From an uncultured delta proteobacterium (GTDB taxonomy: Bacteria; Desulfobacterota; Binatia; Bin18): 38,946 nt of DNA. The notes beneath the pieces are model-generated. The model was not told the DNA's origin. It saw only the letters and a program-made list of their open reading frames with translations, and made no database searches. A program made the position numbers and the translations under genes. The first letter of the stretch is position 1. Every line of letters begins with the position of its first letter. Positions 11,550 to 32,448 of the stretch are shown piece after piece. The stretch covers positions 1 to 38,946 of the forward strand of contig CAVTCR010000002.1 of NCBI GenBank assembly GCA_963733195.1, given 5' to 3'.

Positions 11550-12023
11550 AAGACTTCCGTTTTTCTCAAGCGATTTTCTCACGAGAATCGTAGCTGGCAT
11601 ACCACCCAAAAGGAAGTCTGGATGACAGGACGCGCTGCAATACTGTCGGACGGCAATGGCATAACCCACGGTCCCGTACTCAGCCTGTCCCTGCCCGCTT
11701 CCCTCGGAACTGTCGCAGACAGACAGAGAGTTCGTCGGATGTTCGTGAATGCGGCTCTATTTTCTTCTGTTGTGGTGGACCGCACCTCGGTCTTTCTTCT
11801 GAGGCTACACACCTGTGAACCTGTTCGAAGAATGCCAGAGTGAATATCGCTTTGAGTGATTTATACTCAAGACACAACATCACGATGCAGAGCAAGTGTT
11901 GCTCAGCCTACTCATGAACGGACATCACTCTCGTTTGTGCTCGAGCATTCCCAGAGAAAGTGCGATCAAGGCACCCGCAAAAAAACAAGCATGAGTTTCA
12001 TACATCAAGCCTTCCGTATATCT

Positions 12024-14720
12024 CTACGGACCACACTTCTCGGAGCACATCGAGTCTTGGCTAATAGAACAAACCGCGAACTTGTGTGTCACCGTCACGT
12101 CGTTGTCGCCATCATCGCCGTTGCCCATGCTTCTGGCGACCTCTTTGTAACCGCCTTCCTTGAGGTCGTCGGACAACGAGAGCCCACAGCCCTCCTCCCA
12201 AATCTTCATCGTATTTTGCTCGAAACGAAATTCCATGTGCTTGCATGGCGATCGCGAATGGCCGTCGTAGTAGTCGCTCGTACTGAGACTATCGTAGTCG
12301 CTGACTTCCAACCACGTTGTGGCGCTTTCGTTCTTTTTGATCGGACGGCTCGAATACTCCCATCCAGGATTCGATACCCGTCCGGCTGGGGTAATCTCCT
12401 TCCCCCACGCCGTGCCACACGCTCCGGCCGGCGTCTTTATCCAAAAGTTGTTAGTGTACCAATCGGTCTCTCCGTCATCGAACAAGGTGTCGTCGGATTC
12501 ATTTTCATCTATCAGTTCCGAAACAAGGTACCTGAGCCGGTTGTCGCGATTTGGATTCGGCGGCGGTGGCTCTTTTGCCTTCACCAAGCGGATGTGTGCA
12601 AAGACCTCAGCGTGATCCGATAGACATCCTTCCCAGGGAAACGTTGCGAAGTGACGATCGACTTGTGCGCGTGCAGGTTTTCCTGGCACAAACTGGAAAG
12701 CGTAGGTTGGGTGCTTCACCGTCGCGGGAATGATCATCACGTAGTCGACGCGAACGTTGTTGAGCATATCGGGAATAGTGGGCGTACACTCATTTGCCTT
12801 CGTTTCGCCGATTTGTCCGAGTCCTTCCGTTCCAATCCAACTCCCTTCACCTCCCGTATCCGCACTGATGTCATATTGAACGTAGCGATCGGGATTGCCG
12901 ACACCCATAATGTTCCGGTCATAGAGGGTGAGGCCCCAATTGCCAAGCTTCACCCGCATATCTTTGTACGCTTGGGCGATTTCCGGCTCATAGCCGCCAT
13001 TTTTAATGTCGGTATTGCCGGTCGGACTAAAACCAGCGAGCCACGCGCCCATCTGGACATCACCGTACGCGTCGGGCATGCTACGGGGCCCGACTTGATT
13101 GAGGTCGCCAAGCACGATGGCCGGGCGACTGAACCCATCCTCGGTGCCATCGAGGCTCGGGGGTCCCCGCTTTTCACGAATGTAGTTGCCAAGTGCAGCG
13201 AATTGCGCCTGTCGCTTGGCGTTGTTGTGGTGGTCTTTTTCTGCATCACACTCGGAGCTTCCCGACGGGGAGCAAGGCGCTTGGGTGTGGGTACAAAAAA
13301 CGTCGAGCCATTCGGTACTCGCTTCGACTTTGTCTGCGCGACAGTTACCGCTAACCGGGTCTATACCATACGTACATTTCGCCGGCGGTGAGAGCCGTGC
13401 CCAGACAACGCCCTTGGCTCCCCGCGAGCTGCCCAAGTAGGAGTCATCTGGCCCCTCGGCACCAGGGTCGAGATCCTTGAAGAGTTTTATATCTTGTTTG
13501 TCTACAGTCCAGGTCGTAAGAATGACGTTGTTCGGTTCCTTGTCCTCGGTGATGTTGACCGCGTGCATCGCCGGGAGATTATTTGCGTCCCTTATCTCGT
13601 TGACCCTTTTCACCAGTGCTTGGCGATCGGAGAGGGGCATGAGCTCGGCAAGGCACACGATATCACGCGACCAAACAGCCAGTGCGATTTGCTCCTCGTC
13701 ACCAACACCGCCGTCATTGACGAAGAGGTCGGAGACATTACTCAAATCGACGTCCAGCCCACTGGTGATGCTGGTAATGTCAGTGATGTTCAGCATCTGC
13801 CCCACGTTATAAACGGAAATTCCGAGCTCGGTATACGCCGGTTCGGCGAGATCGACGATTTGGTACGTGTCTTCAAAGCCCCAGGTGAGCCAGGTTGCGG
13901 CACTTTCCTGGGCGATGGGATCGTTCGGAATGGTCATGAGCCGCTGCGTGGGCTGACCGACACTATCGTAGTCCCTGTCGTCGTATCTGAGGCCAAACTT
14001 GAGCTTCTGCGCAGTATAGACACTCGCGGGAAGCGTGATTTCGAATTCAGCGAACACAAAGAGATCGCGTTGCGTATCGCCGAAGTCTTCGATGTTGACG
14101 GCATGCCGGCTCACAACAGACGGTGCGCCGGCAAGAGGGGCTGCACCCGTACAGTCAGTAGCAGGATTAACGCCTTTGTGCTCGCTCACACTATATGTGA
14201 TAGGGTTCATAGGCCATCCGTCAGCGTCGACGCTATCCGCGTCGGGCTGCGAAAAATCAAGCCGTATAATGCGATCGTCTGGCTGGGCGCAGCTATCGGT
14301 CATATCGAAGGCTAAATAAAGATCAAGGCGGCCAGAATCGGTCCTGGTCGTGACATCCCAAAAGCGTGGGATCTTGACGCCGACATACATCCTGCTCGGC
14401 TCCCAGAACGAATCTGGCGTGTGAATCTGGATGTATGCTTCGCCTCGGCGTGCTGGTGGGTTCGTCCGATCTCCGATGAGATTTTCCAATGGGATGATCC
14501 GACCTCTCAGATATTCGTACTGATCCATGCTCCCGGTCAATGTCCCCGTTTCGTCGGCGTATCTGCCATTGACGTGCACTATGAAGGCAGGATCTGTCAC
14601 GTTCTGTGGTTTTATCCATAGAGGGCGTGCAGCCAATGCCACGTCGGCATACAGGAATACTACTGAAAACAACAACAGGGTAACAGAGTGGATTGGATCT
14701 AGCCGTCGACGTAATTTCAT
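12024..14720 (-). CDS. Large secreted endonuclease/exonuclease/phosphatase (sphingomyelinase-like) protein with extra N- and C-terminal domains
   Basis: GGAGG RBS before ATG 14720; signal peptide ending VALA; EEP motifs in order: SVYNV, DIVCLAE, FCTHTQA, LGDLN, RVDYV, LSDH; acidic C2-like C-terminus (LEVSDYDSLSTSDY). Confidence 0.8.
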   Translation of the reverse strand: MKLRRRLDPIHSVTLLLFSVVFLYADVALAARPLWIKPQNVTDPAFIVHVNGRYADETGTLTGSMDQYEYLRGRIIPLENLIGDRTNPPARRGEAYIQIHTPDSFWEPSRMYVGVKIPRFWDVTTRTDSGRLDLYLAFDMTDSCAQPDDRIIRLDFSQPDADSVDADGWPMNPITYSVSEHKGVNPATDCTGAAPLAGAPSVVSRHAVNIEDFGDTQRDLFVFAEFEITLPASVYTAQKLKFGLRYDDRDYDSVGQPTQRLMTIPNDPIAQESAATWLTWGFEDTYQIVDLAEPAYTELGISVYNVGQMLNITDITSITSGLDVDLSNVSDLFVNDGGVGDEEQIALAVWSRDIVCLAELMPLSDRQALVKRVNEIRDANNLPAMHAVNITEDKEPNNVILTTWTVDKQDIKLFKDLDPGAEGPDDSYLGSSRGAKGVVWARLSPPAKCTYGIDPVSGNCRADKVEASTEWLDVFCTHTQAPCSPSGSSECDAEKDHHNNAKRQAQFAALGNYIREKRGPPSLDGTEDGFSRPAIVLGDLNQVGPRSMPDAYGDVQMGAWLAGFSPTGNTDIKNGGYEPEIAQAYKDMRVKLGNWGLTLYDRNIMGVGNPDRYVQYDISADTGGEGSWIGTEGLGQIGETKANECTPTIPDMLNNVRVDYVMIIPATVKHPTYAFQFVPGKPARAQVDRHFATFPWEGCLSDHAEVFAHIRLVKAKEPPPPNPNRDNRLRYLVSELIDENESDDTLFDDGETDWYTNNFWIKTPAGACGTAWGKEITPAGRVSNPGWEYSSRPIKKNESATTWLEVSDYDSLSTSDYYDGHSRSPCKHMEFRFEQNTMKIWEEGCGLSLSDDLKEGGYKEVARSMGNGDDGDNDVTVTHKFAVCSISQDSMCSEKCGP

Positions 14721-27790: not shown

Positions 27791-28390
27791 CTAATGAAAC
27801 CACCAGCCTGGCCATGCTTCAACCAGTGCGGCCAGTTTGGCATAACCTGCCGCACTGGGATGAGCACCATCACCTGTTGTTACTTCAGTTCATCCAAACG
27901 ACTATCCGTCTGCTAACTGGTCAAAGACGGACAAGAACGGGACTCCTTCGCTTTCCGCGACTTCCGCTAACAAGCTGGATAGTCGCTGAGTTCTGAGGTT
28001 TTGCTCTGCATCGGCATTAGGTGGTGGCCCAATCATGATGGTGGAATAGCGTTGCTTTGCTGTACGAAGCATCTCACGCGCGTTCACGACACTTTGCATT
28101 TCAGGGACGCGAGTCTGCCCCTCTTCGATGGTGGTATCGTTTACCCCGAAGGAGAATACGACAAACGGCATGCAGCTACTCGGCAATCGCGTTCGCACTT
28201 CCTGTTGCCATCGTTTTGCAATGTCACTGCTAGTTTCTCGTCGCACGCCAAGGTTGTAGCAGGTCAGATTGTACCCTTTGCGTCGTGCAGCAACCGACAC
28301 TCGTCCTGTCCAGCCGAGATACTCCGGATCACTCGTGCCGTTGATATAAGAGTCACCGACAAAGCAAATGCGTAAATCTTGGTCTTTCAT
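27791..28390 (-). CDS. GDSL/SGNH hydrolase (local indels near 27888-27910 create two stops)
   Basis: FVGDSY, YNLGVRRETS, FSFGVND; catalytic GDGAHP and GY...WW tail continue past the stops to 27791. Confidence 0.85.
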
Positions 28391-28437
28391 GAATACTTGC
28401 CTTCCTTTTCCGTGGGTACAAGTCGGCAAGGCCTTCT

Positions 28438-28752
28438 CTAGAGATATGGCTCCCCTTCCTCTCCAATAATGATTTCCGTGCGCGCGATGGCAGCCTGTCG
28501 CAGCGGCGCCAACTTGGCGAGCTCCGCATCTCCTCTGTATGCGTCAAATCGCTCCATGCTTGGAAATGAAACAATGTGGATCTCGTGTGGAGCGACACCT
28601 GATTGCGCGGAGACAGTCGAACGAATTACCCGTTCGATTTGCCCACCATATCTTTTCATAATCCGAGCAGCTTCGGTTTCGAACTGACGGAACTCAGCCT
28701 CGCGGCCAGCATGGATGAAAAGGGATACCACTAATATGATTCCAGAGCTCAT
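28438..28752 (-). CDS. DUF1330 family protein
   Basis: Ferredoxin-like pattern RYGGQI...IVSFPSMERFDAY...LR. Confidence 0.75.
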   Translation of the reverse strand: MSSGIILVVSLFIHAGREAEFRQFETEAARIMKRYGGQIERVIRSTVSAQSGVAPHEIHIVSFPSMERFDAYRGDAELAKLAPLRQAAIARTEIIIGEEGEPYL

Positions 28753-28791: not shown

Positions 28792-29295
28792 TTAGCGGAA
28801 ACGCTTCTGCATATGGAACGACTGACCACCCACACGGTTGGTTAGTTCGCCAATGACGACAAAGCCGAATCGTTCATACAGCCGTTTCGCTGGGTTCGTC
28901 GCACGAACACTGAGATACACGGCAGGATAGGACGTAGCAGCGGTATTGAAGAGATGAGTCAGGAGTTGAGCGCCGATACCTTTGCCAGTGGAGGACGGAA
29001 CGACGGCAATAGCCAATTCTGGGGTCCCGTCTTCGATATCGTCACAGTTCTTGTCTTCACCGACGAAGACCCGTAGCCACGCGGCACCGACCAGCTGGAG
29101 AGTTCCCACCTCGTAGGCGATCACACCAAGATCGCCAGGTTGTCCCCAGTGAGTGACGTATTTGGTGAGAAACGGATTGTTCCTAGCTTTTTCGACCGAA
29201 CTATCAGGTTCCTCATCCACGTGCGCTGCGTAGTACAACATCTCCCACAAGAAGGGCTCATCAATGAGGTACACTGGACGGAACCGACAATTCAT
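28792..29295 (-). CDS. GNAT family N-acetyltransferase
   Basis: ELAIAVVPSSTGKGIGAQLL acetyl-CoA motif, NPAKRLYERFGF; GAGGAGG RBS. Confidence 0.92.
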   Translation of the reverse strand: MNCRFRPVYLIDEPFLWEMLYYAAHVDEEPDSSVEKARNNPFLTKYVTHWGQPGDLGVIAYEVGTLQLVGAAWLRVFVGEDKNCDDIEDGTPELAIAVVPSSTGKGIGAQLLTHLFNTAATSYPAVYLSVRATNPAKRLYERFGFVVIGELTNRVGGQSFHMQKRFR

Positions 29296-29311
29296 ACGCT
29301 CCTCCTCTCAC

Positions 29312-29347
29312 AAAAGAAAAAGGGCTGCGACTTTCACCGCAGCCCTT
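29312..29347 (-). terminator. Intrinsic terminator T2 in GNAT leader
   Basis: Minus strand AAGGGCTGCG-gtgaaagt-CGCAGCCCTT running into TTTCTTTT. Confidence 0.8.
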
Positions 29348-29351
29348 CAGG

Positions 29352-29391
29352 AAACAAAAAGGCCGCAGGAAGTATGCTTCGCCTGCGGCCT
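29352..29391 (-). terminator. Intrinsic terminator T1 in GNAT leader
   Basis: Minus strand AGGCCGCAGG-cgaagcatactt-CCTGCGGCCT followed by TTTTGTTT. Confidence 0.8.
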
Positions 29392-29422
29392 GTGAACGTT
29401 GCCTGTTAGTACAGTGTCTCGT

Positions 29423-29515
29423 TCAGACGCCGCGCAACGAAGCGCTCGTACGCACATGACGGCGAATACGAACGGCTTTGCTCACAGAAAGTCTGGAGAG
29501 AACACTGAGTGTCAT
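29423..29515 (-). CDS. Putative attenuator leader peptide MTLSVLSRLSVSKAVRIRRHVRTSASLRGV (30 aa)
   Basis: ATG follows an 8-nt gap after the -10 box, no RBS; its last codons and stop overlap a strand complementary to the 5' arm of T1. Confidence 0.6.
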   Translation of the reverse strand: MTLSVLSRLSVSKAVRIRRHVRTSASLRGV

Positions 29516-29523
29516 CGGAGGAC

Positions 29524-29552
29524 TTTATACGTTCGTCGAGAGCCAGAGTCAA
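29524..29552 (-). promoter_or_regulatory. Sigma70-type promoter
   Basis: TTGACT (29552-29547), 17-nt spacer, TATAAA (29529-29524). Confidence 0.72.
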
Positions 29553-29634: not shown

Positions 29635-30006
29635 CTAACGCAGTTGGGCGGCTCGGGCTATCGTTTCATTCAACGCTTCGCCAATCTCCGCTTGGATAAA
29701 CGGCTTGACTCCATCACTACCCGTCAAGGATAACCACAGAGGTCCACCTGCCGGTTGGACTTCCATACGAAAGCCAAAGAACGGACAACAAAGCTTTTCC
29801 CGCATGATAAACTCGGCAACCTTCAGCAATACCGTAGCTTCGTTTGGTAAGCGAAAAGCATAGCCATTAGGCAGTTCTTGAATCTCCTGCACCGCCTGAA
29901 AGACTTCACGAGCAGTAGCAACGTGTTGTTTGCGCTGACTCGGTTCAATTGCGCTCATATCACAGACAAATACAGACGCCATATCCGAACTTTGACAGGT
30001 TGCCAT
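29635..30006 (-). CDS. Hypothetical protein with ExxCCPFF motif (possible metal/metalloid-binding)
   Basis: FVCDMSAI, ELPNGYAFRL, REKLCCPFFGF, LWLSLTGSDGVKPFI. Confidence 0.72.
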   Translation of the reverse strand: MATCQSSDMASVFVCDMSAIEPSQRKQHVATAREVFQAVQEIQELPNGYAFRLPNEATVLLKVAEFIMREKLCCPFFGFRMEVQPAGGPLWLSLTGSDGVKPFIQAEIGEALNETIARAAQLR

Positions 30007-30056
30007 TTTTCGCACCCTCTATAATGCTAGCGTGGACAGCTCGGGAAGCATGGCCG

Positions 30057-30653
30057 TCACGACAGCTCCTGATGGGTTTCGATAATCCGCGAGACGATAC
30101 CGTACTCGATTGCCTCATCTGCGCTCATCCAGAAGTCACGCTCCATATCGGCAAGCACTTTCTTCAGTGATTGACCTGTCTGTTTGGCAATGACCTGGGC
30201 AATACGCTCGCGTGTACGCAGAATCTCCTTTGCTTGGATAGCGATATCGGTTGCCGGTCCGCCAGCTCCACCACCAGGTTGATGGATCATAAAGCGCGTG
30301 TTCGGTAAACAGACTCGCCGATCCTTTGGTGCCGCCAGAAAGATATGGGTCCCAGCGCTGGCCACCCATCCGGTACCAATCGTCGTCACCGGTGCGCGTA
30401 CGAATCTGATCATGTCATGGATTGCATCCCCGGACTCCACGTGACCTCCGGGTGAAGATATCAGGACGTTAATAGGAGCATCCGATTCTTGCGTCAGCGC
30501 GATCAGTCGTTCACACGTCGCTCGCGCGGCGGAGTGATTGATTTCACCAAAGACGAGCACAAAGCGAGCCTTGAACGAAAGCTGCTCCGCAAGACTTTCT
30601 GTTTTCTCAATCTTTTCTGGCTTTTCGTCAGTTGCATCCATTCGATGCGTCAT
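30057..30653 (-). CDS. clpP: ATP-dependent Clp protease proteolytic subunit (ClpP2-like paralogue)
   Basis: SPGGHVESGD, VASAG (catalytic Ser), RFMIHQP (His), ERDFWMSADEAIEYG (Asp); not in tig-clpP-clpX context. Confidence 0.95.
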   Translation of the reverse strand: MTHRMDATDEKPEKIEKTESLAEQLSFKARFVLVFGEINHSAARATCERLIALTQESDAPINVLISSPGGHVESGDAIHDMIRFVRAPVTTIGTGWVASAGTHIFLAAPKDRRVCLPNTRFMIHQPGGGAGGPATDIAIQAKEILRTRERIAQVIAKQTGQSLKKVLADMERDFWMSADEAIEYGIVSRIIETHQELS

Positions 30654-30680: not shown

Positions 30681-31184
30681 TTATAAATTTTTGAACGCTT
30701 CATGATATTGGATGATTCCAGTCTTTCCGGCAAGGTAACCAGATTGCAATTCCAACACCATAAACGCTTCTTCAGGAGCCTCATACTCGCACCTGATACC
30801 ATAGCGAACAGAGGGGACAAAACCAAAGCGGGGATAGTACTCAATATGACCAAGCAGCACTACCGCACCAACCTCTAGAGCCCTGCATTTTTCCAGGCCT
30901 GATTTCACTAAAGCAGAGCCGATTCCCTTCCGTTGGTATCCTGGTAGGACTGCCATAGGAGCGAGGCCCATGATTCGTAGATCTGTATGACCTGAGAGAT
31001 GAACAGGAGAAAACAGAATGTGACCAATGATTGTTCCGCCTTCCTCGGCAACCAAGGAAACGATTGGGTGGCATTGTTCACGCAGAGAATTTACTAAATT
31101 GGCTTCAGCTGGCGTGGCAAAAGCCGCTTGATTGACTGCGAAAACCTCTGGCCAGTCGCTTTCCATCTCTTCTCGAACCCGCAC
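30681..31184 (-). CDS. GNAT N-acetyltransferase, YhbS-like
   Basis: GHILFSPV, LAPMAVLPGYQRKGIGSALV, LGHIEYYPRFGF. Confidence 0.92.
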   Translation of the reverse strand: MRVREEMESDWPEVFAVNQAAFATPAEANLVNSLREQCHPIVSLVAEEGGTIIGHILFSPVHLSGHTDLRIMGLAPMAVLPGYQRKGIGSALVKSGLEKCRALEVGAVVLLGHIEYYPRFGFVPSVRYGIRCEYEAPEEAFMVLELQSGYLAGKTGIIQYHEAFKNL

Positions 31185-31241: not shown

Positions 31242-31688
31242 CTATTCCCCATCTTTGGACGTTTCCACCAACCTAGCCACTGCCTCAGGGGCTTCTGCAC
31301 GAGACGGTCGCACCATCGTGTCAAGCAAATGCTCAAGGGCAGCAGTCGGGTCCTTACACAGTCCGGTGTGTACGGGCGAGATCTGGATTATAGTGCTACG
31401 AGGGGCACTGAGCCAATAGAAGCGCTCCCGCTGGGAAAGTTGACCAATCGGCCCTGCCTGCTTTCCGCCAGTACAAATAGCGGGGATAGTTTCTAGGTGG
31501 ACCCGAAGGGAGTCCATATCCAGGGTCGCATCAAGTGCCATCAGCCGCTGCTCATCCAGGGCAATGCGGGCGTCAAGGAATCCTCGGGCCGAGCACAAAA
31601 CTATCACACCGACGTTGACGAACTCTTCACGTTCGACCTTGGGAACGACGCGGATTATAGCGTAATCATACGTATAGTGATCGTGCAC
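31242..31688 (-). CDS. DUF3037 domain protein
   Basis: YDYAIIRVVPKVEREEFVNVGV, ERFYWLSAPRSTIIQISPVHTG; GTG start inside the kinase 3' end with GGAGG RBS. Confidence 0.88.
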   Translation of the reverse strand: MHDHYTYDYAIIRVVPKVEREEFVNVGVIVLCSARGFLDARIALDEQRLMALDATLDMDSLRVHLETIPAICTGGKQAGPIGQLSQRERFYWLSAPRSTIIQISPVHTGLCKDPTAALEHLLDTMVRPSRAEAPEAVARLVETSKDGE

Positions 31689-32448
31689 GGATCGCCTCCT
31701 CCAGGAAACCATGCGGTGGCTCTAGCCGGCTTAGCAGGTATTCCAGGTACGCATCCCGGTGCTGAGTCTGCCCACCGAATGAGGAGTCTCCAACCAGCCA
31801 AGCGTCAGGAATAAGTCTCACTATACCCTCAATGATGCCTGGCGTGACCCGCCCGGTCATATTCGCGTCTACCTCTCGGAGAGAGCTGGCAAACTGAAGG
31901 AGGACGTGGTCTTTGATCATGGGAAAAGAGTCGCGGCTACGTTCGAGGTAAGTGTTTCGGGTGTGGTGGAAGTAGAGGGCCGCCCCGTGATCGATGAGCC
32001 AAAACCGTCGATGCCAGACAAGCATGTTCGTGTTACGTGGCGTACGGTCAACGTTTGTCACGTACGCATCGAACCAGACAATCGAAGAAGCCAGATCCGC
32101 GTCAGGCTTCTCTGCCACCGGGTCAAACATCACAGCGCCAGGCAAGTAGTCGAGCGCCAGATTAAGGCCGGCACTCGCTCGTATCAAGTCTTGGATCTCC
32201 GGGTCAGGCTCGGTGCGGGCGAGTTCGGGGTCGAGGTCGACAAAAACGATCTCAGGCACTGGCAGCCCCAATGCACGGGCGATCTCCCCCGCCACTAACT
32301 CCGCGATGAGCGCTTTGGGTCCCTGACCCGCGCCGCGGAACTTGAGCACATACATTCCATCATCATCGGCTTCGATTATCGCTGGAAGCGATCCACCTTC
32401 GCGCAATGGGGTGACATACCTTGTGGCACTTACTGTTCTCACGCTCAT
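31666..32448 (-). CDS. HipA-like (PI3K/PI4K-fold) kinase
   Basis: TPLREGGSLP, YVLKF, ALIAE, NVDRTPRNTN catalytic loop, LIDHG. Confidence 0.88.
   Translation of the reverse strand: MSVRTVSATRYVTPLREGGSLPAIIEADDDGMYVLKFRGAGQGPKALIAELVAGEIARALGLPVPEIVFVDLDPELARTEPDPEIQDLIRASAGLNLALDYLPGAVMFDPVAEKPDADLASSIVWFDAYVTNVDRTPRNTNMLVWHRRFWLIDHGAALYFHHTRNTYLERSRDSFPMIKDHVLLQFASSLREVDANMTGRVTPGIIEGIVRLIPDAWLVGDSSFGGQTQHRDAYLEYLLSRLEPPHGFLEEAIRARSLYV

What the first reader, a model, noticed from the sequence alone, without database searches (positions are those of the whole stretch)
29296..29552. Leader-peptide attenuator with two cascade-coupled terminators in front of a GNAT operon
Seen on the minus strand: promoter TTGACT-N17-TATAAA; an ATG after an 8-nt gap (near-leaderless) opening a 30-aa ORF with VRIRRH; two terminators T1 and T2; then the GNAT RBS. 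The end of the leader ORF (GCUUCGUUGCGCGGCGUCUGAACG, 29443-29420, including its stop) is largely complementary to the 5' side of T1 (29398-29376), so it can act as an antiterminator. The freed 3' arm of T1 (CUGCGGCCUUU, 29368-29358) can then pair over 11 positions, 3 of them G-U, with the 5' arm of T2 (AAGGGCUGCGG, 29347-29337). One switch could therefore remove both terminators. Established: leader-peptide attenuators control antibiotic-response genes, and R/K-x-R/K is a macrolide arrest motif. Inference: ribosome stalling turns on GNAT-DUF1330-GDSL hydrolase, possibly as an unrecognised detoxification operon.
Basis: partly seen in the sequence, partly recalled or inferred. Interest (0 to 1): 0.82.

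Follow-up and report, generated by a model that had tools for sequence, protein, structure and literature searches.

The report
Arg-codon leader attenuator with two terminators
A short upstream mini-gene and a chain of competing RNA hairpins, copied from this lineage's leucine-operon switch and re-coded with arginine codons, most likely decide whether transcription passes two successive stop signals into an acetyltransferase gene of unknown substrate.

Summary
It is a real, conserved leader-peptide transcription attenuator. I found it in 25 loci (22 distinct). The 30-codon ORF keeps its ATG and stop in 22 of 22 and shows a coding-type substitution pattern.

The key new result is that it is a paralogue of the lineage's leuA attenuator, found in 49 of 54 related genomes. 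That attenuator has the same promoter-to-ATG spacing, the same terminator pair T1 and T2, and a Leu-rich leader. Five antiterminator base pairs differ on both sides between the two families yet stay paired.

The link between T1's 3' arm and T2's 5' arm (the "cascade") stays complementary in both families (99% and 94% of cells). No compensatory change proves it.

The Arg-rich stretch RIRRHVR (codons 16-22) sits exactly where the leu leader has its Leu run. The likelier signal is therefore slow decoding of Arg codons (low charged tRNA-Arg), not a macrolide arrest motif. This is inferred, not shown. The GNAT substrate is unknown.

Verdict: a new variant of a known kind (his/leu-type attenuation). 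Interest is moderate to high.

The parts
29547..29552 (-). -35 box TTGACT
   Evidence: Sequence. TTGAC is kept in 20 of the 21 sequences that reach this far, and sequence conservation among loci begins exactly here. Not listed by the consensus scan.
29524..29529 (-). -10 box TATAAA, 17 nt after the -35 and 8 nt before the leader ATG, with no Shine-Dalgarno in between (near-leaderless arrangement)
   Evidence: The leuA paralogue has the same spacing: ATG 37-40 nt after the start of TTGACA in 28 of 30. No transcription start site data.
29423..29515 (-). Leader ORF, 30 codons plus TGA
   Evidence: ATG and stop are conserved in 22 of 22. The only indel is an in-frame 3-nt insertion. Synonymous/non-synonymous single-difference codon pairs are 1247/1385 in frame, against 618/1815 and 527/1638 in the other two frames.
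29450..29470 (-). Codons 16-22, R-I-R-R-H-V-R: the presumed control codons (Arg 16, 18, 19, 22; all CGT or CGC)
   Evidence: They occupy the same codon positions as the L-L-L-G-L-L-L run of the leuA leaders. Arg is kept in 18, 19, 19 and 21 of 22 at these four codons.
29414..29505 (-). P1 (1:2) long hairpin across the leader ORF; its 3' half holds the antiterminator strand
   Evidence: RNAalifold consensus with compensatory pairs at alignment A2 columns 23:113, 48:92, 60:81 and 61:80. -39.2 kcal/mol.
29420..29443 (-). Segment 2: 5' strand of the antiterminator; contains the leader stop codon
   Evidence: Pairs with 29398-29376. 97% and 89% of cells are paired in its two helices over 22 sequences. 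Five pairs are compensated between the GNAT and leu families.
29376..29398 (-). Segment 3: 3' strand of the antiterminator; overlaps the 5' arm and loop of T1
   Evidence: Antiterminator -35.1 against T1 -20.7 kcal/mol.
29353..29390 (-). T1: terminator hairpin (29390-29361) plus T-tract TTTTTGTT
   Evidence: Pairs at A2 columns 147:167 (GC 12, AU 8), 149:165 and 144:170 are compensated. At least 5 T in the next 8 nt in 22 of 22.
29337..29368 (-). 4:5 hairpin (T1 3' arm 29368-29358 with T2 5' arm 29347-29337): the proposed link that removes T2 when T1 is removed
   Evidence: 11 pairs, 3 of them G-U. 99.2% of cells are paired in 22 GNAT leaders and 94.2% in 30 leu leaders, where the 10 core pairs are never unpaired. 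-18.4 kcal/mol.
29311..29348 (-). T2: second terminator hairpin (29348-29319) plus T-tract TTTTTCTT
   Evidence: Listed by the scan. Conserved in 22 of 22. At least 5 T in 8 nt in 22 of 22.
29301..29306 (-). Shine-Dalgarno AGGAGG of the GNAT gene, 5 nt after the T2 tail: no room for a separate promoter
   Evidence: GGAG is invariant in alignment A2.
28792..29295 (-). GNAT acetyltransferase, 167 aa: the regulated gene
   Evidence: Pfam Acetyltransf_7, _10 and _1. It follows the leader in 8 of the 9 genomes found by searching with leader DNA.
28438..28752 (-). DUF1330 protein, 104 aa: a variable operon member
   Evidence: Pfam. Present after the GNAT in 4 of the 7 leader-GNAT loci whose held DNA reaches past the GNAT; the eighth, L022, ends there.
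27902..28429 (-). GDSL/SGNH hydrolase: a variable operon member (the true start is probably the ATG of MKDQDLRICFVGDSY)
   Evidence: Pfam Lipase_GDSL_2. Position and presence vary among loci.

Best explanation
This is a ribosome-mediated (leader-peptide) transcription attenuator of the his/leu type.

A promoter places a near-leaderless 30-codon ORF at the 5' end of the transcript. The RNA can fold in two mutually exclusive ways:
- OFF: P1 (1:2) + T1 (3:4) + T2 (5:6), giving two intrinsic terminators in a row.
- ON: antiterminator (2:3) + hairpin 4:5, which consumes one arm of each terminator.

A ribosome that runs to the stop codon covers segment 2, because the stop lies inside it. T1 and T2 then form and transcription ends. 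With no ribosome, P1 sequesters segment 2 and the outcome is the same. A ribosome held up in the middle of the ORF melts P1 but leaves segment 2 free. Segment 2 then captures segment 3 as it emerges, the freed segment 4 captures segment 5, and RNA polymerase reads through both terminators into the GNAT gene.

The element arose as a copy of the lineage's leuA attenuator. Its Leu control codons (codons 16-22) are replaced by R-I-R-R-H-V-R. The most likely physiological signal is therefore slow decoding of Arg codons, meaning a shortage of charged tRNA-Arg.

Shown here: the anatomy, its conservation, the coding signature, the covariation of T1, P1 and the antiterminator, and the paralogy. Inferred: kinetic control, the role of 4:5, the near-leaderless start, and the Arg signal. 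My odds are about 0.9 that it is an attenuator, about 0.6 that 4:5 is functional, and about 0.45 that Arg-tRNA is the signal. The single confidence figure is for the whole statement.
For: 1. Conservation. The leader occurs in 9 of 55 genomes of the family (genera g1 3 of 3, g9 1 of 1, g10 5 of 6) and in 16 of 80 metagenome loci fetched with the GNAT protein. That makes 25 loci, 22 distinct. Conservation starts at the -35 box, while the upstream genes differ.

2. Coding. ATG and stop are kept in 22 of 22 and the one indel is in frame. The synonymous to non-synonymous ratio is 0.90 in frame, against 0.34 and 0.32 out of frame.

3. OFF structure. RNAalifold predicts 47 pairs, 10 of them with compensatory change.

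4. ON structure. 94.4% of cells are paired, against 38-50% when the partners are slid. Antiterminator pairs 6:76, 7:75, 22:61, 25:58 and 26:57 of alignment A4 differ on both sides between the GNAT and leu families and stay paired. That is 106 cells against 45.9 in shuffles, and 0 of 500 shuffles reached it.

5. Energies. The antiterminator is more stable than T1 in 22 of 22 and 30 of 30. AT + 4:5 is at least as stable as T1 + T2 in 20 of 22 and 29 of 30. The 4:5 hairpin is weaker than T2 in 17 of 22 and 30 of 30.

6. Ribosome scan. With a footprint of -12 to +14 nt and the transcript ending at T1, the antiterminator wins for at least one P-site position in 18 of 22 sequences. All such positions are at codon 20 or earlier. 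It never wins at the stop codon or without a ribosome.

7. Paralogy. The leuA leaders (30 loci, 10 genera) share the promoter-ATG spacing, T1, T2 and the 4:5 complementarity. They carry a Leu run at the codons where this leader has Arg. G000 holds just these two T1-T2 modules.

8. No promoter fits between T2 and the GNAT ribosome binding site.

9. Precedents. Chained alternative hairpins are known in the his leader (PMC4046918, Introduction passages). Arg-codon sensing by an upstream ORF is known at speF (PMC6386406, abstract).
Against: - There is no transcription start site, 3'-end or expression data. The only RNA-library material is five read-length contigs at depth 2-4, which could be DNA carry-over.
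- At equilibrium the full-length leader of the window's own sequence stays in the OFF fold for every ribosome position. The best case is P-site codon 10, with antiterminator 0.24 and 4:5 0.22.
- Truncated at T1, the window's sequence favours the antiterminator only at P-site codons 9-10, or at 9, 10, 17 and 20 if all RNA 5' of the ribosome is masked. Four of 22 sequences never favour it.
- With the transcript ending before segment 4, the antiterminator forms even without a ribosome (0.97). The switch must therefore be kinetic, which I cannot compute.
- The 4:5 complementarity could be a relic of T2 being a diverged copy of T1. Every change seen is a transition that G-U pairing tolerates, and no pair needs a double change.
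- Arg signal. The regulated GNAT is an accessory gene of three genera, not an arginine-pathway enzyme. Only 4 of the 7 control codons are Arg, and three leaders keep just 2. The Arg codons used are the genome's commonest, CGT and CGC, together 58%. argJ and argG of the same genome show no Arg leader.
Confidence: 0.5

Rival explanations
1. Drug- or ligand-dependent nascent-peptide arrest. The conserved peptide core KAVRIRRHVR stalls the ribosome mid-ORF only when a tunnel-binding antibiotic (macrolide or ketolide, at an R/K-x-R/K motif) or a small metabolite is present. The same RNA switch then turns on a GNAT that modifies the compound.
For: R-I-R at codons 16-18 fits the Arg/Lys-X-Arg/Lys motif at which ketolides stall (PMC8298421, abstract start seen in the listing). 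Leader-peptide attenuation of macrolide resistance genes is established (PMC4335068, abstract start). A stall with P-site codon 17 lies inside the window that favours the antiterminator. The core peptide is conserved at the amino-acid level with free CGT/CGC and CAT/CAC exchange. I-R-R recalls the HIRRXXH ornithine-recognition loop of SpeFL (10.1101/604074, passages). The nearest structural neighbours include detoxifying GNATs (PAT/BAR, ArsN, PA4866) and SpeG.
Against: The motif is absent from 6 of 22 leaders, five of them in front of an intact GNAT. The leuA paralogue shows comparable conservation of non-Leu residues (TPPGGSE), which RNA pairing explains, so peptide conservation is not diagnostic. 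The element descends from an amino-acid attenuator. GNATs are not known macrolide-modifying enzymes (recalled, not from a call). SpeFL stalls at its stop codon, and a stall there would mask segment 2 here and favour termination. The two His of HIRRXXH are not matched.
Confidence: 0.2
2. An unspecific gauge of translation speed, like the whiB7 upstream ORF. Any slowing of elongation in codons 5-21 relative to RNA polymerase switches the GNAT on, whether from starvation for several amino acids or from various ribosome inhibitors. Arg is only one contributor.
For: The antiterminator-favouring window is broad (P-site codons about 5-20) in many of the 22 sequences. The control stretch mixes Arg, Ile, His and Val. 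The whiB7 upstream ORF responds to starvation for many amino acids, with specificity set by upstream ORF composition (PMC10274678, abstract).
Against: Four of seven control codons converged on Arg from a Leu/Gly ancestor state, which suggests selected specificity. The leuA sister element is clearly amino-acid specific.
Confidence: 0.15
3. Not a switch. The transcript is a small RNA or small-protein gene ending at a double terminator, or T1/T2 merely terminate the upstream gene. On this reading the GNAT is expressed by leak-through or from elsewhere.
For: The OFF fold is the equilibrium state in all full-length simulations. One RNA-library contig ends at 29357, in the T1 T-tract (a single contig at depth 3.7). 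In one genome (G069, L029) the leader persists although the GNAT is gone.
Against: Upstream genes differ between loci while the leader stays attached to the GNAT: 8 of 9 genomes, and 16 of the 17 metagenome GNATs at 74% identity or more. There is no room for a GNAT promoter after T2. The antiterminator is maintained by compensatory change, which a plain terminator would not need. The L029 leader has the weakest antiterminator and 4:5 energies of the set, as expected for decay.
Confidence: 0.07

Closest known systems
Salmonella/E. coli his operon attenuator (hisL)
   Same: A leader peptide with control codons. A chain of alternative hairpins, A:B, C:D, E:F against B:C, D:E, lets one stalled ribosome propagate a refolding down the leader (PMC4046918, Introduction passages). 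Without translation the default is termination.
   Different: Here the middle hairpin (3:4) is itself a full terminator with a T-tract (at least 5 T in 8 nt in 22 of 22). Two terminators must therefore be removed by one event. The control codons are Arg mixed with Ile, His and Val, not a pure run. The regulated gene is not the matching biosynthetic operon. No sequence or Rfam similarity.
The leuA leader-peptide attenuator of the same bacterial family
   Same: Homologous T1-T2 module (nhmmer E = 8e-19 and 1.3e-17 for the two copies in G000). The same distance from -35 to ATG, the same three-part antiterminator, the same 4:5 complementarity, and control codons at the same positions.
   Different: Leu run against R-I-R-R-H-V-R. 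leuA against GNAT downstream. Family-wide (49 of 54 genomes) against three genera. The antiterminator helices have different sequences. Neither copy matches any Rfam family at gathering score.
whiB7 upstream ORF attenuator of mycobacteria
   Same: Stalling in an upstream ORF gives antitermination. The amino-acid composition of the upstream ORF sets which starvation is sensed, and translation-targeting stress also induces. The system is linked to intrinsic resistance functions (PMC10274678, abstract).
   Different: Ala-enriched upstream ORF, a transcription factor as the regulated gene, and an unrelated sequence. The abstract describes no double terminator.
speF leader ORF (orf34 / SpeFL) of gamma-proteobacteria
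   Same: A short upstream ORF in which consecutive Arg codons couple arginine supply to the mRNA's fate (PMC6386406, abstract). It has an I-R-R tripeptide inside its ligand-recognition loop HIRRXXH (10.1101/604074, passages).
   Different: It acts through Rho, RNase G and arrest at the stop codon, not through intrinsic terminators. The two His of the motif are not matched here. An arrest at the stop codon would favour termination in this element.
Macrolide-inducible leader peptides (erm, mef/msr)
   Same: A leader ORF whose mid-ORF stall refolds the downstream RNA. An R/K-x-R/K-type motif is present in 16 of 22 leaders (motif from the PMC8298421 abstract start).
   Different: No known resistance gene lies downstream. 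The motif is not universal. The evolutionary origin is an amino-acid attenuator.

Membership tests
Ribosome-mediated leader-peptide transcription attenuators (trp/his/leu type) | Short translated ORF at the 5' end of the leader transcript | tested here: met
   ATG and stop in 22 of 22, an in-frame indel only. The synonymous excess is specific to this frame. Translation itself was not observed.
Ribosome-mediated leader-peptide transcription attenuators (trp/his/leu type) | Intrinsic terminator between the leader ORF and the structural gene | tested here: met
   T1 and T2: GC-rich stems with compensatory pairs and T-rich tails in 22 of 22. T2 is also listed by the scan.
Ribosome-mediated leader-peptide transcription attenuators (trp/his/leu type) | Antiterminator mutually exclusive with both the terminator and an upstream hairpin, overlapping the end of the ORF | tested here: met
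   Segments 29443-29420 and 29398-29376. 89-97% of cells paired. Five pairs compensated between paralogues. Shuffle test 1 of 2000.
Ribosome-mediated leader-peptide transcription attenuators (trp/his/leu type) | Control codons for the amino acid made by the regulated operon | tested here: not met
   Arg at 4 of the 7 control codons, but the operon (GNAT, DUF1330, GDSL) is not an arginine pathway. The mechanism can still be the same.
Ribosome-mediated leader-peptide transcription attenuators (trp/his/leu type) | Read-through rises when the cognate charged tRNA is scarce | not testable with these tools
   Needs a reporter or in vitro assay.
leuA attenuator family of this lineage | Homologous promoter-ORF-T1-T2 scaffold | tested here: met
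   nhmmer finds exactly two modules in G000. Alignments A4 and both.aln.
leuA attenuator family of this lineage | Leu-codon run in the leader, and leuA downstream | tested here: not met
   Codons 16-22 are R-I-R-R-H-V-R and the downstream gene is a GNAT. It is therefore a paralogue, not a member.
Antibiotic-inducible leader-peptide attenuators (erm/mef/cat type) | Conserved drug-dependent arrest motif in the leader peptide | tested here: inconclusive
   R/K-x-R/K at codons 16-18 in 16 of 22 and absent in 6. No functional test.
Antibiotic-inducible leader-peptide attenuators (erm/mef/cat type) | Downstream gene is a resistance determinant for the inducing drug | tested here: inconclusive
   GNAT with only generic matches. 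No NCBIfam model is above its cut-off. The best PDB profile hit has E = 3e-5 to an uncharacterised protein. Foldseek TM-scores are 0.6-0.74 to many GNAT classes.
SpeFL-type metabolite-sensing arrest peptides | HIRRXXH recognition loop and arrest at the stop codon | tested here: not met
   Only I-R-R is shared. A ribosome at the stop codon masks segment 2 and favours T1.
Any Rfam family | Score at or above the gathering threshold | tested here: not met
   The best hit is BjrC68 at 22.1 bits against 39. Trp_leader scores 17.1 against 41. The leu paralogue also has none.

The most novel reading that the evidence does not exclude
The leader is not a tRNA-charging gauge but a ligand-sensing arrest peptide. 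On this reading the conserved core K-A-V-R-I-R-R-H-V-R, together with the exit tunnel, captures a small basic molecule and arrests the ribosome mid-ORF. The molecule would be of the ornithine, arginine or polyamine class, as the I-R-R of SpeFL's HIRRXXH loop does for ornithine, or a tunnel-binding natural product. One arrest then removes two terminators and induces a GNAT that acetylates that compound; SpeG, PaiA and PAT-like enzymes are among its nearest structural neighbours. This would be a metabolite- or drug-sensing nascent peptide built by re-coding a duplicated leucine attenuator.
Probability: 0.08. Interest if true: 0.8.

Novelty: new variant of a known kind. Interest (0 to 1): 0.6.

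Why it matters
- It shows how a classical amino-acid attenuator can be duplicated, re-coded codon by codon from Leu to Arg, Ile, His and Val (each one base change away from a Leu or Gly codon), and attached to an unrelated accessory gene. That is a clear natural example of regulatory-module reuse.
- It offers a compact design in which one ribosome stall removes two consecutive terminators through a chain of five hairpins. This should give very low basal expression with full inducibility, which is of interest for synthetic biology and for understanding tandem terminators in leaders.
- If Arg-tRNA is the signal, an uncharacterised GNAT is tied to arginine starvation in an uncultured soil lineage. 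That gives a concrete handle on its substrate, for example an arginine antimetabolite, a polyamine or an aminoacyl compound.
- Neither this leader nor its widespread leuA sister is in Rfam, so both are candidates for new families.

Tried and rejected
- Rfam with permissive thresholds on the region and on the leu paralogue: nothing at gathering score.
- Pattern scan of 185,579 species' genomes for the T1-T2 junction: 74 hits, of which only 5 are real (2 GNAT-type, 3 leu-type). The other 69 are chance matches in unrelated taxa, and no third paralogue family appeared. The titles of the five real records disagree on taxonomy (Candidatus Binatia, Candidatus Methylomirabilota, 'uncultured Enterobacteriaceae'), so I do not name the lineage.
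- nhmmer of the T1-T2 module on the whole genome: two copies only. A strict regex missed the leu copy.
- Equilibrium folding with a ribosome footprint on the full leader never gave the ON fold as the dominant state. I therefore rely on kinetic reasoning, which is untested.
- I considered the GNAT as a short N-acetylglutamate synthase, because of the Arg-codon control. I rejected it as unsupported. No ArgA-type hit appears in NCBIfam or PDB searches. The gene is confined to three genera. The genome has argJ.
- Looked for Arg-codon leaders upstream of argJ and argG of G000: none seen.
- GNAT homologues at 58% identity or less (63 metagenome loci, and 2 genomes of genus g8): blastn found no leader in any. 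In those I read, the upstream regions hold other genes or unrelated AT-rich promoters.
- Sequencing runs: DNA holders carry at most 0.26 of the sampled words. Four RNA libraries gave five read-length contigs at depth 2-4, two in the leader, two in the GNAT and one upstream. They cannot show starts, ends or levels. The contig ending at 29357 is an anecdote only.
- Earlier scan notes by place and by sequence: nothing.
- Literature: no paper holds 'attenuator' + 'leader peptide' + 'tandem terminators' or 'Binatia' + 'attenuator'. These two searches are the basis for saying I found no published description.
Full report
**The observation**

On the minus strand the window reads as follows:
- TTGACT (29552-29547), then 17 nt, then TATAAA (29529-29524).
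- 8 nt without a Shine-Dalgarno, then ATG (29515).
- A 30-codon ORF, MTLSVLSRLSVSKAVRIRRHVRTSASLRGV, ending at TGA (29425-29423).
- Hairpin T1 (29390-29361) followed by TTTTTGTT.
- Hairpin T2 (29348-29319) followed by TTTTTCTT.
- AGGAGG (29306-29301) and the ATG of a 167-aa GNAT (29295).

The consensus scan lists T2. It does not list T1, because the loop is longer than its limit. It does not list the promoter, because the -10 lacks the final T it requires.

The leader folds far better than shuffles: -98.6 kcal/mol, z = -5.7, 0 of 200 shuffles as good.
- 2:3 duplex: -30.2 against -15.7 +/- 3.3 kcal/mol; 1 of 2000 shuffles as low.
- 4:5 duplex: -16.4 against -8.4 +/- 2.1 kcal/mol; 2 of 2000 as low.

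The downstream genes are GNAT, DUF1330 and a GDSL hydrolase.

**Conservation**

A DNA search of the 55 genomes of the family found the leader in 9: genera g1 3 of 3, g9 1 of 1, g10 5 of 6. It was found in 0 of 28 genomes of g8 and 0 of 8 of g3.

A metagenome scan with the GNAT protein gave 80 loci. blastn found the leader in 16 of them. These are all but one (L032) of the 17 loci whose GNAT is at least 74% identical. None of the 63 more distant homologues has it.

In total there are 25 loci and 22 distinct sequences. Sequence similarity begins exactly at the -35 box. The genes upstream differ: ClpP in four loci and unrelated genes in the others. The gene downstream is the GNAT in 8 of the 9 genomes found through the leader. 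The ninth (L029) has lost the GNAT and keeps a truncated GDSL remnant. DUF1330 and GDSL are not constant partners.

**Is the ORF translated?**

- ATG and stop are kept in 22 of 22. The length is 30 codons, or 31 in one sequence through an in-frame 3-nt insertion.
- Codon pairs differing at one base are synonymous/non-synonymous 1247/1385 in frame, against 618/1815 and 527/1638 in the two other frames. Third positions vary most.
- The strict use of ATG (22 of 22 here, 30 of 30 in the sister family) with no Shine-Dalgarno, 8 +/- 1 nt after the -10, fits leaderless initiation. That ATG is preferred there is established knowledge. No transcription start site data exist for this element.

**RNA structures**

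RNAalifold on the 22 sequences gives P1 (a long hairpin across the ORF), T1 and T2. It predicts 47 pairs, 10 of them with compensatory changes. An example is T1 pair 147:167, which is GC in 12 and AU in 8 sequences.

The alternative fold has 94.4% of cells paired, against 38-50% when the partners are slid. Few double changes occur within this family. This fold consists of the antiterminator (A2 columns 86-109 with 133-155) and the 4:5 hairpin (166-176 with 187-197).

Energies for the window's sequence:

| Element | kcal/mol |
|---|---|
| P1 | -39.2 |
| Antiterminator | -35.1 |
| T1 | -20.7 |
| 4:5 | -18.4 |
| T2 | -20.5 |

**The decisive lead: a paralogous leuA attenuator**

Short extra matches to the T2 region in other genomes turned out to be a second, paralogous attenuator in front of leuA. 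It has these parts:
- Promoter TTGACA, 17-18 nt, then a TATAG-like -10.
- ATG 37-40 nt after the start of the -35 in 28 of 30 loci.
- A 25-38-codon Leu-rich ORF, for example MFILSLGLLLGTLGLLLALLLTNPPGGSERSA in G000.
- T1 and T2, then the ribosome binding site and leuA.

This leu leader is present in 49 of 54 other genomes of the family, in all 10 genera. In it T1 + T2 are paired in 99.2% of cells, with 4 compensated pairs. The antiterminator is paired in 86.9% and 4:5 in 94.2%, and the ten core 4:5 pairs are never unpaired.

G000 contains exactly two such T1-T2 modules, this one and the leuA one. My results agree with it.

**Covariation between the paralogues**

In a joint alignment of 52 sequences (A4), the antiterminator occupies the same columns in both families but with different sequences:
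- GNAT type: UCUGAACG with CGUUCAGA, and GCUUCG with CGAAGC.
- leu type: UCCGAGAG with CUCUCGGA, and CCCGCC with GGCGGG.

Pairs 6:76, 7:75, 22:61, 25:58 and 26:57 differ on both sides between the families and remain paired. That is 106 cells against 45.9 in shuffles, and 0 of 500 shuffles reached it. This reflects essentially one evolutionary split, not many independent events. But five compensated pairs are strong support for the antiterminator.

**The cascade**

Segment 5 (T2's 5' arm) is nearly a copy of segment 3 (T1's 5' arm). It carries two transitions that turn two Watson-Crick pairs of 3:4 into G-U pairs in 4:5, and these wobbles are kept in 29-30 of 30 leu leaders. As a result 4:5 is weaker than T2 in 17 of 22 and 30 of 30, and weaker than T1 in 20 of 22 and 30 of 30. 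Antiterminator + 4:5 is at least as stable as T1 + T2 in 20 of 22 and 29 of 30.

Logically, a regulated T1 followed by an unregulated T2 would make the switch pointless. Both tails are T-rich in 22 of 22.

All compensatory changes seen in T1 and T2 are transitions that 4:5 tolerates. The data are therefore compatible with selection on 4:5 but do not prove it. Common descent of T1 and T2 is the neutral alternative.

The principle of chained alternative hairpins is known from the his leader: A:B, C:D, E:F against B:C, D:E (PMC4046918, Introduction). What is new here is that the middle hairpin is itself a terminator.

**Ribosome positions**

I used a footprint of -12 to +14 nt around the P-site codon with the transcript ending at T1.
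- The antiterminator is favoured for at least one position in 18 of 22 sequences.
- It is favoured only at P-site codons up to 20.
- It is never favoured with the ribosome at the stop codon or with no ribosome.

For the window's own sequence the window is narrow: codons 9-10, or 9, 10, 17 and 20 if all RNA 5' of the ribosome is masked. For the full leader through T2 the OFF fold dominates at every position. When the transcript stops before segment 4, the antiterminator forms even without a ribosome. The switch must therefore work kinetically, as in classical attenuators. I could not simulate that.

**What is sensed?**

In the leu leaders the control codons are L-L-L-G-L-L-L at about codons 16-22, ending 6 nt before the antiterminator strand. 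In the GNAT leaders the same codons read R-I-R-R-H-V-R, ending 7 nt before it. Each of these residues is one base change away from a CTN Leu codon or from GGC. Four of the seven became Arg.

Arg is kept in 18, 19, 19 and 21 of 22 sequences at codons 16, 18, 19 and 22, with free CGT/CGC exchange. By analogy with its parent, the element most likely reads the supply of charged tRNA-Arg. Arg-codon sensing by an upstream ORF has a precedent at speF (PMC6386406, abstract). Earlier notes of this scan report Arg-codon attenuators elsewhere (e1-4598412, e1-2329739, e1-2997775; I did not check these).

Points against the Arg reading:
- The GNAT is an accessory gene of three genera.
- It has only generic family and fold matches.
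- argJ and argG of the same genome carry no such leader.
- CGT and CGC are the commonest Arg codons.
- Three leaders keep only two Arg codons in the stretch.

The macrolide reading rests on R-I-R, a ketolide and macrolide stall motif (PMC8298421, abstract start). That motif is present in 16 of 22 leaders. It cannot be excluded, and the whiB7 upstream ORF shows that starvation and drug signals can share one attenuator (PMC10274678, abstract).

The I-R-R tripeptide also occurs in SpeFL's HIRRXXH loop (10.1101/604074, passages). But the flanking His residues are not matched, and SpeFL arrests at its stop codon, which would here favour termination.

**Expression data**

Four soil RNA libraries hold five read-length contigs at depth 2-4: two on the leader, two in the GNAT and one upstream. 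One ends at 29357, in the T1 T-tract, with an unrelated tail. This cannot distinguish RNA from DNA carry-over and shows no starts, ends or levels.

**Verdict**

The attenuator and its antiterminator are well supported. The two-terminator cascade is plausible and conserved but unproven. The antibiotic interpretation is less likely than Arg-tRNA sensing. The function of the GNAT is unknown.

I found no published description in two searches and no Rfam family. I rate it a new variant of a known kind.

Noticed in passing
G000 contig C31, about 12004-12240 (minus strand); locus L184: The genome's leuA gene has its own leader-peptide attenuator: a Leu-rich 32-codon ORF followed by T1 and T2. It is the parent of the element studied. 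It is present in 49 of 54 other genomes of the family and matches no Rfam family.
   Followed up: yes
window 29635-30015 (minus strand): A 126-aa ORF with no Pfam or NCBIfam match sits between ClpP and the leader promoter. In the same-genus genome G001 (L022), ClpP is followed directly by the leader, so this ORF looks like a local insertion.
   Followed up: partly
L029 (G069:C438), locus positions 1480-1800: The leader with both terminators persists, but the GNAT gene is gone and only a truncated GDSL-like remnant follows. This copy has the weakest antiterminator and 4:5 energies of the set, which looks like decay after loss of the regulated gene.
   Followed up: partly
L032, locus positions 1-240: A GNAT 89% identical to the window's has no leader. 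Another gene and a single different hairpin precede the same T-tail and ribosome binding site, so the junction of the replacement lies inside T2.
   Followed up: partly
window 31242-32448 (minus strand): A HipA_2-type kinase gene (31666-32448) overlaps a DUF3037 gene (31242-31712) by 47 nt, a candidate two-gene module. A second GNAT (30681-31184) and ClpP (30057-30653) follow on the same strand.
   Followed up: no
L219 (G000:C65), locus positions about 1090-1220, upstream of argG: A repeated CTGCAAAATAA-like motif in the long untranslated region before argG. It may be operator boxes of a repressor, which would mean arginine genes here are protein-regulated, not attenuated.
   Followed up: no
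G005 contigs C30 and C254 (L191 and table): This genome holds two copies of the leu leader, each followed by a leuA-like start. This is either a gene duplication or a mixed bin.
   Followed up: no
L116, L119, L141, L144, L151: Record titles of close relatives disagree on taxonomy: Candidatus Binatia, Candidatus Methylomirabilota, and three 'uncultured Enterobacteriaceae' labels that are clearly wrong for these sequences.
   Followed up: no
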